Below are positions 3,001 to 9,000 of a DNA stretch of 64,000 nucleotides, piece by piece. How positions within the stretch are numbered: the first letter of the stretch is position 1; every line of letters starts with the position of its first letter. This DNA is from Escherichia coli (GTDB lineage Bacteria > Pseudomonadota > Gammaproteobacteria > Enterobacterales > Enterobacteriaceae). Location: the NCBI RefSeq assembly GCF_041886205.1, contig NZ_CP169029.1; one strand, written 5' to 3'. The position numbers were made by a program.

Positions 3001-6000
3001 TGCGGTCGCCAGTGAAGTGGCGCATCAACTTCATGCCGCGTTTCTTGATGGCGATTTCCTCCATCCACGGCGCAATATCGAAAAAATGGCGTCTGGTGAA
3101 CCGCTGAATGACGACGACCGCAAACCGTGGTTGCAGGCGCTGAACGACGCCGCGTTTGCTATGCAGCGTACCAATAAAGTGTCGCTGATCGTCTGTTCTG
3201 CACTGAAAAAACACTATCGCGACTTGCTGCGTGAAGGTAATCCGAATCTCTCGTTCATCTACCTGAAAGGCGATTTTGATGTGATTGAAAGCCGCCTGAA
3301 AGCGCGCAAAGGCCATTTCTTTAAAACCCAAATGTTGGTGACGCAGTTTGAAACGCTGCAGGAGCCGGGTGCGGACGAAACCGATGTACTGGTGGTGGAT
3401 ATCGATCAACCGCTGGAAGGTGTTGTGGCAAGCACCATTGAGGTTATTAAAAAAGGCAAATAAGTAGTGACTACATTAACGCTTGTTTTAACAGCAGTAG
3501 GGTCTGTTTTACTGCTGCTGTTTTTAGTCATGAAGGCGCGTATGCACGCTTTCCTGGCTTTAATGGTGGTGTCTATGGGGGCTGGCCTTTTTTCCGGTAT
3601 GCCGCTCGATAAAATCGCAGCGACGATGGAAAAAGGGATGGGAGGCACCCTCGGCTTCCTGGCGGTGGTTGTCGCCCTGGGAGCTATGTTTGGCAAGATC
3701 TTACATGAAACCGGCGCAGTCGATCAGATTGCCGTCAAAATGCTCAAATCCTTCGGCCACAGCCGCGCGCATTATGCCATTGGCCTTGCGGGGCTGGTTT
3801 GTGCGCTACCGCTGTTCTTTGAAGTGGCGATTGTTCTGCTGATTAGCGTTGCTTTCTCAATGGCGCGCCACACCGGTACGAACCTGGTGAAGCTGGTAAT
3901 CCCATTATTCGCAGGCGTGGCGGCAGCGGCGGCGTTCCTGGTGCCAGGGCCAGCGCCAATGCTGCTGGCATCGCAGATGAACGCCGATTTTGGCTGGATG
4001 ATCCTGATTGGCCTGTGTGCGGCAATTCCGGGAATGATTATTGCCGGGCCGCTGTGGGGTAACTTCATCAGCCGTTACGTTGAGCTGCATATTCCTGACG
4101 ACATCAGCGAACCGCATCTCGGCGAAGGCAAAATGCCATCTTTCGGATTCAGCCTGTCGCTGATCCTGCTGCCGCTGGTGCTGGTAGGGCTGAAAACCAT
4201 TGCCGCGCGTTTTGTGCCGGAAGGATCAACTGCTTACGAATGGTTTGAGTTTATCGGTCATCCGTTTACCGCGATTCTGGTTGCTTGTCTGGTGGCGATT
4301 TACGGTCTGGCAATGCGTCAGGGCATGCCAAAAGACAAAGTGATGGAGATTTGCGGTCACGCGCTGCAACCGGCGGGGATCATTCTGCTGGTGATTGGTG
4401 CGGGCGGCGTGTTCAAACAGGTGCTGGTTGACTCTGGCGTAGGTCCGGCACTGGGCGAAGCGTTAACCGGCATGGGCCTGCCGATTGCTATCACCTGCTT
4501 CGTGCTGGCCGCTGCAGTGCGCATCATTCAGGGGTCTGCCACCGTAGCCTGTTTAACGGCGGTGGGACTGGTGATGCCAGTCATTGAACAACTGAACTAC
4601 TCTGGTGCGCAAATGGCGGCACTGTCGATTTGTATCGCTGGTGGTTCGATTGTTGTCAGCCACGTTAACGACGCTGGTTTCTGGTTGTTCGGTAAATTTA
4701 CCGGCGCGACCGAAGCCGAAACGCTGAAAACCTGGACCATGATGGAAACCATCCTCGGCACTGTCGGTGCCATCGTTGGGATGATTGCGTTCCAGCTGTT
4801 GAGTTAATTACTGCGACAAATTACTGCGAGCTTGCTCGCAGTAATTCATTTCTCTTATCTCCTCTCTTCATCTTTTTGATCCCTCTCGCAAATTTACCTG
4901 CTAATAATCCGTTCTAATCACTGCCTAAAGATCGCAGGAGATAAAGATGGAAAAGCACGGAGCTGAATTGCTTTTACAGCGGATGTTAGGAAATACCACC
5001 GCTACTTTCAGGAAAGGGCAATGGGAAGCCATAGACGCGGTGGTGAACCAACGGCGAAAACTGCTGGTTGTCCAACGCACTGGCAGGGGGAAAAGTGCCG
5101 TGTACTTCATCGCCAGTAAAATCTTCCGCGATCGCGGTGCTGGCCCGACAATTATCATCTCTCCTTTGCTTGCCCTGATGCGTAACCAGGTTGCCGCCGC
5201 TGAACGGTTAGGTATTACGGCTGAAACGTTGAATTCTACAAACAGGGAAGAATGGCAGCGTATTAGCGATAAGTTGCTGCAAGGTGAGGTCGATTGCTTG
5301 CTGGTTTCCCCGGAACGTTTGGCAAACCAGGACTTTATCGAAACGGTTTTATATCCTATAGCCGATCGTATTGGCTTGCTTGTGGTCGACGAGGCGCACT
5401 GCATCTCTGATTGGGGCCACGATTTTCGCCCGGATTACCGACGTATATTAGATATTTTGCGCCAACTGCCTGCGAATATCCCAGTTCTGGGTACAACCGC
5501 GACAGCGAATAACCGTGTCGTTGAGGATATCCGTCAGCAATTGGGTGACATTGTGATTCAGCGTGGAACGCTGGCTCGCGAAAGTTTGGCGCTTGATGCC
5601 TTAGTCTTAGGTGAACAGTCATCCCGTCTGGCATGGTTAGCAACGGTTATCCCTCAGTTTTCCAAATCGGGAATTGTTTATACCCTGACTACTCGCGATG
5701 CCGAACTTGTCGCCGAGTGGTTAAGGACAAATGGTATCAGTGCATTTGCTTACTACAGCGGCGTGACTTGTGAAGGCGCGGAAGATTCTAATACTGCCAG
5801 GGAATATCTGGAGCAGGCGCTGCTGGCAAATAAAATCAAAGTGCTGGTCGCGACGACGGCATTAGGTATGGGGTTTGATAAACCTGATTTAGGTTTCGTC
5901 ATTCATTATCAAATGCCGGGGTCTATTGTCGGTTACTACCAACAGGTAGGGCGTGCCGGGCGTGCTATAGATTCCGCTGTTGGCATATTGCTTTGTGGTG

Positions 6001-9000
6001 GTGAAGACCGCGCTATTCATAAATTCTTCCGTGAAAGCGCCTTTCCTGCGGAGGCGCAAATTCATGAAATACTCAACGTACTTAGCGAGAATGACGGTCT
6101 TACCCTACGAGGCATTGAACAACGGACGAATCTCCGTTATGGGCAAATAGAAAAAGCACTGAAATTATTGGTAGCTGAAAATCCATCGCCTGTGGTGTAT
6201 ACCGAGAAATTATGGCGCAGAACTATCGTCAGTTTCTCTCCTGACCATGAACGAATTAACCATTTGATGAATCAGAGAAAAAATGAGCTGGCAGATGTTG
6301 AAAGCTATATCACGACCAAGGAGTGCAAAATGCAATTTCTGCGCCGCGCACTCGATGAGCCAAGTGCCGAACGTTGTGGTAAATGTAGCAGTTGTCTTCA
6401 GCATCCGTTGCTGTCGCCCGATATTGATAGCGGCTTACTCCATGCGGCAAATTTATTTATTAAACACGCTGACCTGCCATTAAATCTCAATAAACAGGTA
6501 GCATCTGGGGCTTTTACGCAATACGGATTTAAAGGGAACTTGCCTGCGGGTTTACAAGGATCTACGGGGCGAGTCCTTTCTCGTTGGGGAGATTCCGGGT
6601 GGGGAAAGCAGGTAGCACAGGAGAAAAAAACGGGGCGATTCAGTGATGAGCTGGTGGAGGCATGTGCGGAAATGGTTCGCCAACGCTGGAATCCGCATCC
6701 TGAACCAACCTGGGTATGCTGCGTTCCTTCATTAAGGCACCTCGACCTGGTTCCTGATTTTGCCCGGCGACTGGCGGCGAAACTTGGCTTACCTTTTATT
6801 GATGCCATTGAAAAAGTCGTGGACAATCCACCGCAGAATATGCAGCAAAACCGTTTTCACCAGTGTCAAAATCTCGACGGGGCGTTTGTGATTACCCCTC
6901 CTTTGATGCCAGGTCCGGCGTTGCTGGTTGACGATATCGTGGATTCTGCATGGACGCTGACAGTTCTGACAGCACTGTTACGCCAGGCAGGTTGCCCGAC
7001 GGTTTATCCTCTTGCCCTTGCTTCTACCTCGGTAAAAAATTGATGAATCTTTCAGCCAATGCACAAGCGACTCTCCTGCTAACCAGCGATTTTTCTCGCG
7101 CGGCGGCGAGTGAGCATAAACCTCTTAGTAATAGTGAATGGGGGAAGTTTGCATTATGGCTGAAGCACCAACGTATCAGTCCCGCCGAGCTTCTGGTGCC
7201 GCAACCGCAAGAGAAACTTACAGGCTGGAGCGATCCGCGTATTTCTCAGGAGCGTATTCTTGGCTTGCTGGCGCGCGGTCATAGTCTGGCGTTGGCGGTA
7301 GATAAGTGGCAACGCGCCGGTTTATGGATCATAACCCGAGGAGATGCTGATTATCCCGTTCGCTTGAAAAACCGATTGCGAACGGATGCACCTCCCGTTT
7401 TATTTGGCTGCGGGAATAAAGCATTACTGCAAGCGGAAGGTATGGCGATTGTTGGCTCGCGAGATGCTCCGACTGACGATTTGCGCTATACCCAACAACT
7501 GGCCGCGAAACTGGCCCAACAGGGGATTTGCGTTATCTCTGGTGGTGCGCGAGGTATTGATGAATGTGCAATGGCGTCGGCACTGGAGGCCGGGGGAACT
7601 GCCGTTGGCGTATTAGCTGATAGCTTGTTAAAAACGAGTACGTTAGTGAAATGGCGTGAAGGGCTTATAGCAGGCAACCTGGTGTTGATTTCGCCGTTTT
7701 ACCCAGAGGTGCGTTTCACCGTCGGCAATGCGATGGCGCGAAATAAATATATTTATTGCCTTGCTGAAAGCGCAATGGTTGTACGTGCGGGAATGACCGG
7801 TGGAACGATAACCGGGGCGATAGAGGCATTAAAACATCAGTGGCTGCCTGTGCAGGTTAAACCAAATCAGGATATGCAATCAGCCAATTCACGATTAGTA
7901 GAAAATGGGGCGTCATGGAGTGCTGAACAGGCTGAGAATGTGCCGATCAGACTGTCAGACGTTCCTGGGCTGATGTATGACAGAGCACTCCGTAACGCTC
8001 AACCAGAACTGTTTTCGCTGTATGAAGATGACGCAAATTACGCAGTAATGCCCGCGCATACGCCTGTCGATTTTTATCAACTCTTTGTGGCGGAACTGGC
8101 GATCTTTGCAAAGGAATCGATAAGTATTGAAAGGCTGTCGTCTTGTACTGGTTTAACCATCGAACAAATTAGTGTGTGGCTGAACCGCGCAGAAGAAGAG
8201 GGAAGGGTTATCCGATTGGGCGAAGGTCATTATCAGTTCAGGTAATAAAACAGGTGCCGCGTCTGGTTGTGTGCAGCACCTGTTTGAACCTTACCCCTTC
8301 ATCCACATTCGAATGCCGTCGAGGAACATCTGGGTTGCCATCATCACCAGAATCAATCCCATCAGGCGTTCAAGTGCGTTCACCCCTTTCTCGCCCAGCA
8401 GACGTAAAAATAGCGAAGACTGTAGCAGGATGACAAAGGTGCCGCCCCAGGCCAGCAGCAGAGCAATCACCAGATGTCCCATCTGATTTGGGTACTGATG
8501 AGACAACAACATCAGCGTGGCGAGAATAGTCGGCCCGGCGACTAACGGAATTGCCAACGGCACGATAAATGGCTCTTCACCTGCCGGAAGCCCGCTGCTA
8601 TTTCCTGAAGCGCTGGGGAAAATCATCTTAATGGCGATCAGAAACAGTATGATGCCGCCAGAAATGGAGACGGTTTCTGCTCGCAGGCTAAGAAATGCCA
8701 GAATTTTCTCACCCGCAAACAGGAACACCAGCATCACCAGGAGAGCAATAAGCAACTCTCGCACCATGATTGCCCGCCGTCTTTTCGGTTCAGTATGTTT
8801 CAGTACGGACATGAAAATAGGTAGGTTTCCGAGCGGATCCATAATCAGGATCAATAAAACTGCTGCAGAAATGATTTCATTCATAACTCAAATTCCCTGA
8901 TAATTGCCGCGGACTTTCTGCGTGCTAACAAAGCAGGATAAGTCGCATTACTGATGGCTTCGCTATCATTGATTAATTTCACTTGCGACTTTGGCTGCTT

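What the first reader, a model, noticed from the sequence alone, without database searches (positions are those of the whole stretch)
4947..8245. The operon combines the three domain types of the natural-transformation DNA-uptake machinery
Established knowledge: in competent bacteria, incoming ssDNA is handled by ComFA (an SF2 helicase), ComFC (a PRTase-fold protein) and DprA (which binds ssDNA and loads RecA). Seen in sequence: this operon contains a helicase, a ComF-like PRTase-fold domain and a DprA-like protein, with the first two fused (the helicase here is RecQ-type, not ComFA-type). Inference: the module may act on ssDNA intermediates, for example phage replication or recombination intermediates, with the DprA-like protein restraining the helicase/PRTase.
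Basis: inference. Interest (0 to 1): 0.6.

Follow-up and report, generated by a model that had tools for sequence, protein, structure and literature searches.

The report
Known RqlHI/PsyrTA toxin-antitoxin defence pair
These two E. coli genes are the already published RqlH-RqlI (PsyrT-PsyrA) pair, in which a DNA helicase fused to a toxic ComF-like domain is held in check by a DprA-like partner, so the finding is correct but not new.

Summary
Window 4947-7043 encodes a 698-aa RecQ-like helicase with a four-cysteine zinc module and a C-terminal PRTase domain. Window 7043-8245 encodes a 400-aa DprA-like protein.

The window is E. coli chromosome. The pair replaces the 56-bp gntU-yhgN spacer of K-12 and is present in about 30% of complete E. 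coli genomes.

This locus is rqlH-rqlI of Russell & Mulvey 2015. There the PRTase domain is genotoxic (D663), and RqlI binds and neutralises it. It is the same as PsyrTA of Sberro 2013 and Millman 2022. The ComFA/ComFC/DprA analogy was already published in 2012, 2015 and 2017.

Anti-phage activity was shown for a Bacillus homologue. It was not seen for the E. coli allele in two studies. Whether RqlI senses ssDNA remains an inference from ShosA.

A new side observation: this window's allele carries rare W47R (Walker A) and K631N substitutions at conserved positions.

The parts
4819..4846 (+). 12-bp-stem hairpin just after the gntU stop and about 100 nt before rqlH. It looks like the gntU terminator. 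It contains a perfect TGCGA-N6-TCGCA palindrome at 4825-4840.
   Evidence: Terminator-like site. The motif is unique in the window. It lies in the segment absent from K-12. It is conserved with compensatory stem changes in Citrobacter.
4936..4940 (+). Shine-Dalgarno AGGAG, 6 nt before the rqlH ATG
   Evidence: Read directly from the sequence
4947..7043 (+). rqlH / psyrT: 698-aa toxin made of a RecQ-like helicase, a zinc module and a ComFC-like PRTase
   Evidence: PADLOC PsyrT E=0, 1057 bits, residues 3-697. RecQ_fam is above its cut-off. The numbering of K49, D148 and D663 is the same as in F11 RqlH.
4947..5996 (+). SF2 RecQ-like ATPase/helicase core (aa 1 to about 350), with Walker A TG-R47-GKS, DEAH148 and QQVGRAGR332
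   Evidence: Pfam DEAD and Helicase_C. PDB RecQ hits cover aa 4-356. R47 replaces a Trp found in 108/110 family representatives.
6324..6395 (+). RecQ-type four-cysteine zinc-binding module (C460, C477, C480, C483)
   Evidence: Pfam RecQ_Zn_bind E=0.0011. The cysteines are conserved in 104-105 of 110 representatives. This matches the four-cysteine zinc-binding domain described for M. smegmatis RqlH.
6471..7040 (+). ComFC-like PRTase domain (aa 509-698), the genotoxic effector. It has the NLDGAF motif (642) and the PRPP loop DDIVDSAWT (662-670).
7043..8245 (+). rqlI / psyrA: 400-aa DprA-like antitoxin. Its ATG overlaps the rqlH TGA by 1 nt.
   Evidence: PADLOC PsyrA 2e-199, residues 1-400. Pfam DNA_processg_A 1e-50. 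It differs at 2 residues from the 400-aa PsyrA of E. coli STEC 1299 in Millman Table S2.
7307..7918 (+). DprA/SLOG Rossmann domain of RqlI (aa 89-292). It retains R140 and R233, which are equivalent to two of the three ssDNA-contact arginines of H. pylori DprA.
8072..8239 (+). C-terminal winged-helix domain of RqlI (aa 344-399), after a disordered linker (aa 308-339)
8248..8285 (.). Inverted repeat AAACAGGTGC...GCACCTGTTT between the convergent rqlI and yhgN. It is a likely bidirectional terminator and marks the right edge of the segment absent from K-12.
   Evidence: Read directly from the sequence.

Best explanation
This is the chromosomal rqlH-rqlI operon of E. coli, also called PsyrT-PsyrA. 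It is a two-gene toxin-antitoxin module that is also catalogued as an anti-phage defence system.

RqlH is a RecQ-like motor that moves 3'-5' on ssDNA. Its C-terminal ComFC-like PRTase domain is the genotoxic effector. When unrestrained, that domain causes SOS induction, filamentation and mutagenesis.

RqlI is a DprA-like protein with an N-terminal helical domain, a Rossmann/SLOG domain and a winged helix. It is translated by coupling from the overlapping stop/start. It binds the PRTase domain and keeps it silent.

The next steps are inferred, not shown. RqlI, like DprA and ShosA, binds ssDNA and perhaps RecA. Accumulation of foreign ssDNA, or loss of RqlI synthesis during infection, would then free the PRTase and arrest or kill the cell. 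The chemical target of the PRTase is unknown.
For: Identity:
- Full-length PADLOC matches to PsyrT and PsyrA.
- Residue numbering identical to F11 RqlH for K49, D148 and D663.
- Millman's cloned E. coli PsyrTA fragment begins with the same sequence as window 4809. It encodes proteins differing at 5 of the first 399 residues (PsyrT) and 2 of 400 (PsyrA).

Architecture:
- RecQ_fam above cut-off.

Mechanism, from the literature:
- RqlH toxicity needs the PRTase domain and D663. RqlI neutralises it and co-immunoprecipitates only if the PRTase domain is present. The two genes form an operon (PMC4670107).
- The M. smegmatis orthologue is an ssDNA-dependent ATPase and 3'-5' helicase (PMC3378886).
- A Bacillus PsyrTA defends against phage.
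- ShosA binds ssDNA and RecA, and ShosT toxicity requires PRPP binding.

Genomic context:
- The pair is conserved in 8 of 8 distant contexts.
- In 3 of these it is nested inside type I R-M operons.
Against: - The E. coli allele showed no phage protection in Millman's screen (SG127 'x'). A native E. coli PsyrTA showed none in the NILS69 study.
- Here the pair sits alone between core genes, not in a defence island.
- ShosA does not bind ShosT directly, whereas RqlI binds RqlH. The ShosTA trigger model may therefore not transfer.
- RqlI keeps only 2 of the 3 DprA ssDNA-contact arginines.
- The PRPP loop is atypical: DDxVDSxWT instead of DDxxTTGxT.
- Most Gram-positive RqlH genes lack an RqlI partner.
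Confidence: 0.85

Rival explanations
1. A cooperative DNA-maintenance or DNA-uptake module rather than an immune system. RqlH and RqlI would act together on chromosomal or incoming ssDNA, as in the Russell & Mulvey Fig. 10 model. The PRTase marks a nucleotide, and RqlI plus the helicase resolve it. Toxicity would only be the by-product of an unbalanced pathway.
For: - Two studies found no phage defence for E. coli alleles.
- The same gntU-yhgN site is occupied in Citrobacter werkmanii, whose PsyrA is only 64% identical. This suggests long vertical residence.
- Helicase-dead RqlH is toxic even with RqlI present, which implies the helicase takes part in resolving something.
- ComFC and DprA physically cooperate on ssDNA in competence.
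- A perfect TGCGA-N6-TCGCA palindrome lies upstream. From memory, this matches the CRP-S core of the Sxy competence regulon.
Against: - The rqlHI deletion has no detected phenotype, and no transformation was detected in ExPEC.
- 70% of E. coli genomes lack the pair.
- Homologues nest inside type I R-M operons in three genera.
- The palindrome is not conserved upstream of psyrT at independent loci, and it doubles as the gntU terminator.
Confidence: 0.15
2. A purely selfish addiction module. The pair would persist because losing the antitoxin kills the cell, with no benefit to the host.
For: - Toxin-antitoxin behaviour is documented.
- The double deletion has no fitness phenotype.
- The pair is patchily present, in 30% of E. 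coli genomes.
- Some strains carry IS-disrupted copies (hits H11-H13).
Against: - The pair is almost never on plasmids (4 of 72,556 records) or phages. It has no mobility genes or flanking repeats here.
- A homologue does protect against phage.
- The large multi-domain toxin is strongly conserved across phyla. There are 59 columns at 95% or higher conservation among 110 representatives.
Confidence: 0.1
3. In this particular strain lineage the module is attenuated or decaying. K631N in the PRTase flexible loop arose first, and W47R in the helicase P-loop followed. The operon in the window may therefore no longer be fully active.
For: - W47 is Trp in 108 of 110 family representatives, and Tyr or Phe in the other two. 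R47 is the window protein's only deviation among 59 columns conserved at 95% or more.
- The R47 allele is in 6 of 5426 E. coli genomes. The Trp codon in the same 33-nt context matched 591 genomes.
- N631 is in 10 genomes and K631 in 1638.
- K631 is 90% or more conserved among closer homologues (K180).
- In F11, helicase-dead RqlH is tolerated only if the PRTase is also mutated. That fits the order in which the two changes appeared.
Against: - Both reading frames are intact, with all catalytic residues present: K49, D148 and D662/D663.
- No biochemical data exist for either substitution.
- The x position of GxGKS varies among RecQ helicases in general (from memory).
Confidence: 0.25

Closest known systems
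RqlH-RqlI of extraintestinal pathogenic E. coli F11 (Russell & Mulvey 2015, PMC4670107)
   Same: Same species and the same two-gene operon. The proteins have the same lengths (698 and 400 aa) and the same numbering of K49, D148 and DIVD663. The RecQ-like, zinc, PRTase and DprA-like architecture is the same.
   Different: The allele here has private substitutions, including W47R and K631N, compared with other E. coli alleles. The F11 sequence itself could not be fetched for a residue-by-residue comparison.
PsyrTA (Sberro 2013; Millman 2022; PADLOC/DefenseFinder)
   Same: Full-length HMM matches to both components. Millman's E. coli STEC 1299 construct SG127 is the same locus, and its cloned fragment starts with the same sequence as window 4809.
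   Different: The experimentally verified anti-phage PsyrTA is from Bacillus sp. FJAT-29814. The E. coli construct showed no defence.
ShosTA (PRTase toxin plus DprA-like antitoxin)
ComFA / ComFC / DprA of natural transformation
   Same: The PRTase domain's closest solved structure is ComFC, and RqlI's closest are DprA proteins. ComFC binds ssDNA and interacts with DprA, which parallels the contact between RqlI and the PRTase domain. An SF2 ssDNA motor is associated in both cases.
   Different: The helicase belongs to the RecQ family, not to ComFA. The sequence scores are far below the ComF/GntX and DprA family cut-offs. The zinc module is RecQ-type, not the ComFC zinc finger. No link to ComEC or to competence is known. 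E. coli has its own gntX (in this window) and its own dprA.
Mycobacterium smegmatis RqlH (Ordonez, Unciuleac & Shuman 2012)
   Same: It is the founding member of the same helicase clade, with the same order of ATPase, linker, four-cysteine zinc module and ComF-like domain. It has ssDNA-dependent ATPase and 3'-5' helicase activity.
   Different: It has no RqlI partner, which is typical of Gram-positive and actinobacterial genomes.

Membership tests
PsyrTA / RqlHI | The toxin is a single polypeptide with a RecQ-like SF2 helicase, a four-cysteine zinc module and a C-terminal ComF-like PRTase | tested here: met
PsyrTA / RqlHI | A DprA-like protein is encoded immediately downstream on the same strand, overlapping or abutting the toxin gene | tested here: met
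   PADLOC PsyrA 660 bits, residues 1-400. TGATG overlap at 7041-7045. The same arrangement is seen in 8 of 8 distant loci.
PsyrTA / RqlHI | The toxin is growth-inhibitory alone and is neutralised by the downstream protein | not testable with these tools
   Shown experimentally for the F11 allele of this locus and for the P. syringae founder pair. Not shown for the R47/N631 allele.
PsyrTA / RqlHI | Protection against phage infection | not testable with these tools
   In the literature the Bacillus sp. FJAT-29814 system is positive. E. coli STEC 1299 construct SG127 is negative, and the NILS69 PsyrTA is negative.
ComFC (competence PRTase-fold protein) | Orthologue-level sequence match to the ComF/GntX family | tested here: not met
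   NCBIfam GntX scores 15.5 bits against a cut-off of 304. The genuine gntX is at window 41016-41699 and is only 26% identical over 76 aa.
ComFC (competence PRTase-fold protein) | PRT fold of the ComFC type, with a PRPP loop and a flexible loop | tested here: met
ComFA (competence helicase) | ComFA-family DEAD-box ATPase | tested here: not met
   The helicase is classified as RecQ family. No ComFA model appears among the NCBIfam hits.
DprA (recombination mediator of transformation) | Orthologue-level match to DprA | tested here: not met
DprA (recombination mediator of transformation) | ssDNA-binding arginines and RecA loading | tested here: inconclusive
   R140 and R233 align with H. pylori DprA R52 and R143 and are conserved or invariant in the family. 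The R170 equivalent is Ile260. Binding itself is untested.
ShosTA | Stand-alone PRTase toxin without a helicase, and an antitoxin matching ShosA best | tested here: not met
   The toxin carries a RecQ-like helicase. The antitoxin scores 660 bits on PsyrA against 93 bits on ShosA.

The most novel reading that the evidence does not exclude
RqlHI would be a derived, weaponised version of the ComFC-DprA hand-off used in transformation. RqlI, like DprA and ShosA, would sense ssDNA and RecA. The RecQ-like motor would carry the ComFC-like PRTase along foreign ssDNA from phage, conjugation or uptake. The PRTase would then chemically modify DNA or a nucleotide pool.

A further possibility is that the TGCGA-N6-TCGCA site upstream puts the E. 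coli and Citrobacter copy under Sxy/CRP-S competence control.

None of this is excluded by the evidence. The core idea has already been proposed in print, but it has never been tested.
Probability: 0.2. Interest if true: 0.55.

Novelty: already known. Interest (0 to 1): 0.15.

Why it matters
The module is a published system, so finding it here adds no new kind of biology.

What remains open, and directly testable, is its chemistry and its trigger. The substrate of the ComFC-like PRTase is unknown. It is also unknown whether the DprA-like antitoxin reads ssDNA or RecA. Answers would explain both PsyrTA and the still enigmatic PRT domain of ComFC in natural transformation.

The rare W47R and K631N allele in this strain offers a natural pair of variants for such tests.

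Tried and rejected
1. Competence-regulon control. The hairpin at 4819-4846 holds a perfect TGCGA-N6-TCGCA. This is the CRP-S core as I recall it from Cameron & Redfield and Sinha et al.; I did not check those papers here.
   - The motif is unique in the window, with 0.14 expected and 13 of 100 shuffles reaching one match.
   - It is conserved in Citrobacter at the orthologous site.
   - It is absent upstream of psyrT in Providencia, Brenneria and Alcaligenaceae, and Serratia has only a 1-mismatch site.
   - It also scores as the gntU terminator.
   - I kept it only as a low-probability lead.

2. Mobile-element origin. There are no flanking repeats, integrase or IS. The K-12 spacer is replaced exactly between the two stop codons.

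3. Solved structure of the system. No PDB entry matches the PRTase domain or RqlI closely by sequence.

4. Known RNA elements. No Rfam family reaches its gathering score anywhere in the window.

5. Promoter. No sigma-70 consensus match was found in the 100-nt leader.

6. Plasmid or phage carriage. It is negligible.

7. Antisense ORFs inside rqlH (4925-5404 and 6398-6826 on the minus strand). I judged them spurious because they overlap a conserved coding region.
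Full report
**What is there**

The window is Escherichia coli chromosome. Bases 4800-8400 are 100% identical to strain LHM10-1 and five other complete genomes. The annotated neighbours are gntR-gntK-gntU upstream and yhgN-asd-glgB downstream.

Two co-directional ORFs fill the finding's coordinates.
- ORF1 (4947-7043, 698 aa) is preceded by AGGAG at 4936-4940.
- ORF2 is listed from 6950, and RefSeq annotates that 431-aa form.
- ATG 7043 overlaps the TGA of ORF1 (TGATG) and gives 400 aa.
- 400 aa is the length covered end-to-end by the PADLOC PsyrA model. 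It is also the length given by Millman et al. and by Russell & Mulvey.

**Checking the three domain claims**

Helicase.
- Pfam gives DEAD 1.1e-24 and Helicase_C 8e-13.
- NCBIfam RecQ_fam scores 254 bits, above its curated cut-off of 219.8.
- The best PDB sequence matches are E. coli RecQ, BLM and RECQ1.
- Walker A (TGRGKS, K49), DEAH (D148), motif VI and a C-x16-C-x2-C-x2-C cluster (460/477/480/483) are all present.

PRTase.
- By sequence it is only marginal. Pfam gives E=0.0077.
- The best NCBIfam PRTase hit is GntX/ComF at E=0.009.
- BLASTP against the window's own GntX (41016-41699, minus strand) gives E=1e-5. The alignment covers the NLxxAF motif and the VDD PRPP loop.
- I therefore built an alignment of 61 homologues and predicted residues 452-698 (pLDDT 92.4).
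- Foldseek also puts ComFC first.

DprA-like protein.
- Pfam DNA_processg_A gives 1e-50, and SLOG cluster 4 is also hit.

**Identity**

Both proteins match the PADLOC models over their full length: PsyrT at E=0 and 1057 bits, PsyrA at 2e-199. Millman et al. state that PsyrTA is also called RqlHI.

Russell & Mulvey 2015 studied exactly this operon in E. coli F11.
- RqlH alone induces SOS, filamentation and mutagenesis.
- Toxicity needs the PRTase domain (aa 509-690) and D663 of the DIVD motif.
- RqlI (400 aa) reverses the toxicity. It co-immunoprecipitates with full-length RqlH but not with RqlH 1-509.
- The two genes are co-transcribed.
- DIVD lies at residue 663, K49 is the Walker lysine and D148 starts DEAH in the window protein. 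The numbering is therefore identical.

Millman's Table S2 lists construct SG127, 'PsyrTA, Escherichia coli STEC 1299'.
- Its cloned fragment is 3485 bp and begins with the sequence found at window 4809.
- Its PsyrT differs from the window protein at 5 of the first 399 residues. Its PsyrA differs at 2 of 400.

The M. smegmatis orthologue is an ssDNA-dependent ATPase and 3'-5' helicase. Its authors already called the C-terminal domain ComF-like.

The parallel with the competence proteins is in print three times.
- Ordonez et al. 2012 described the ComF-like domain.
- The Discussion of Russell & Mulvey 2015 explicitly compares the operon with B. subtilis ComFA/ComFC and DprA.
- Iyer et al. [quoted passage not shown] DprA', possibly triggered by invasive DNA.

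ComFC itself binds ssDNA and interacts with DprA. This makes the analogy mechanistically reasonable.

**Genomic setting**

- In K-12 the gntU and yhgN stop codons are 56 bp apart. Here that spacer is replaced by about 3.48 kb carrying only the two genes. A hairpin lies on each side, at 4819-4846 and 8248-8285.
- There are no flanking repeats and no mobility genes.
- The pair is present in 1641-1648 of 5426 complete E. coli genomes. It is always chromosomal, with one copy per genome. Some copies are interrupted by an IS.
- Citrobacter werkmanii has the pair at the same site, although its PsyrA is only 64% identical.
- In eight distant genomes the helicase-PRTase gene is always directly upstream with a 1-4 nt overlap.
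- In three of these (Marinobacter, Vibrio vulnificus, Shewanella) the pair is nested between hsdS and hsdR of a type I restriction-modification operon. That is a typical defence context.
- The pair is nearly absent from plasmids (4 of 72,556 records) and from phages.

**How it most likely works**

Shown in the literature for this locus or its orthologues:
- an ssDNA-tracking RecQ-like motor;
- a PRTase-dependent genotoxic effect;
- direct binding and neutralisation by RqlI.

Inferred:
- RqlI binds ssDNA and RecA as ShosA does.
- Phage ssDNA, or a stop in host gene expression, releases the toxin.

My own check gives partial support for the first inference. RqlI keeps the equivalents of two of the three H. 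pylori DprA ssDNA-contact arginines (R140 and R233, both conserved in the family). The third position is Ile260.

Caveats:
- ShosA does not bind ShosT, whereas RqlI binds RqlH.
- The PRPP loop is atypical (DDxVDSxWT).
- The E. coli allele gave no phage protection in Millman's screen. A native E. coli PsyrTA gave none in strain NILS69 or in K-12.

A cooperative DNA-maintenance role, or a purely selfish role, therefore cannot be dismissed.

**Side findings**

- Among 110 full-length family representatives, residue 47 of the Walker A motif is Trp in 108, and Tyr or Phe in the other two.
- The window protein has Arg at that position. This is its only deviation among 59 columns conserved at 95% or more.
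- The AGG codon occurs in 6 of 5426 E. coli genomes. TGG in the same 33-nt context matched 591 genomes.
- A second private change, K631N in the PRTase flexible loop, occurs in 10 genomes, against 1638 with Lys.
- All six genomes with R47 appear to be among the ten with N631: the five R47 genomes listed are's list, and the sixth was not named. This suggests K631N came first.
- In F11, helicase-dead RqlH is poorly tolerated unless the PRTase is also mutated. This lineage may therefore carry an attenuated module. That is speculation.
- The upstream hairpin contains a perfect TGCGA-N6-TCGCA palindrome. The palindrome is not conserved at independent loci, so it is most simply the gntU terminator.

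**Verdict**

The element is the already described RqlHI/PsyrTA module, and the interpretation repeats published proposals. Interest is low. The open questions are the PRTase substrate, the trigger, and the function of the E. coli allele.

Noticed in passing
window 5085-5087 (codon 47 of rqlH): The Walker A motif reads TG-R-GKS. The family has Trp here in 108 of 110 representatives, and Tyr or Phe in the other two. The Arg allele is in only 6 of 5426 complete E. coli genomes. It is the protein's only deviation among 59 highly conserved columns.
   Followed up: partly
window 6837-6839 (codon 631 of rqlH): K631N in the PRTase flexible loop. Asn is in 10 of 5426 E. coli genomes and Lys in 1638. 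Lys is 90% or more conserved among closer homologues. The R47 genomes appear to be a subset of these ten, which suggests stepwise change.
   Followed up: partly
window 4825-4840: A perfect TGCGA-N6-TCGCA palindrome (a CRP-S-like core) lies inside the hairpin between gntU and rqlH. It is conserved in Citrobacter at the same site but not upstream of psyrT elsewhere. It is probably just the gntU terminator.
   Followed up: yes
window 6950-7042: RefSeq annotates the DprA-like gene as 431 aa, starting at ATG 6950 and overlapping rqlH by 94 nt. The HMM coverage, the published 400-aa protein and the TGATG coupling all point to ATG 7043.
   Followed up: yes
window 41016-41699 (-): gntX, the genuine E. 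coli ComFC orthologue ('DNA utilization protein'), lies 34 kb from rqlHI in the same window. It is only 26% identical to the RqlH PRTase domain over 76 residues.
   Followed up: partly
window ~19946-22935 (+): An accessory block lies between glgP and glpD. It holds a PstS-family substrate-binding protein and two hypothetical proteins. By my recollection, not checked here, K-12 has only the yzgL pseudogene at this position.
   Followed up: no
window ~42526-43154 (-): A MazF/PemK toxin with an AbrB/MazE-type antitoxin lies between bioH and rpnA. This is another small toxin-antitoxin insertion in the window.
   Followed up: no
window ~52767-53439 (-): A RelE/ParE-family toxin and a NadS-family protein lie between envZ and pckA. 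This is a third toxin-antitoxin-like pair in the window.
   Followed up: no
L004 3893-7254; L010 1905-5329; L012 1860-5350: In Marinobacter, Vibrio vulnificus and Shewanella the psyrT-psyrA pair is inserted between hsdS and hsdR of a type I restriction-modification operon. It has almost no intergenic space there, so it is probably co-transcribed with the R-M genes.
   Followed up: partly
L008 1905-5206: Citrobacter werkmanii carries the pair at the same gntU-yhgN site as E. coli, despite only 64% PsyrA identity. This suggests either old residence at this site or repeated exchange through the flanking core genes.
   Followed up: no
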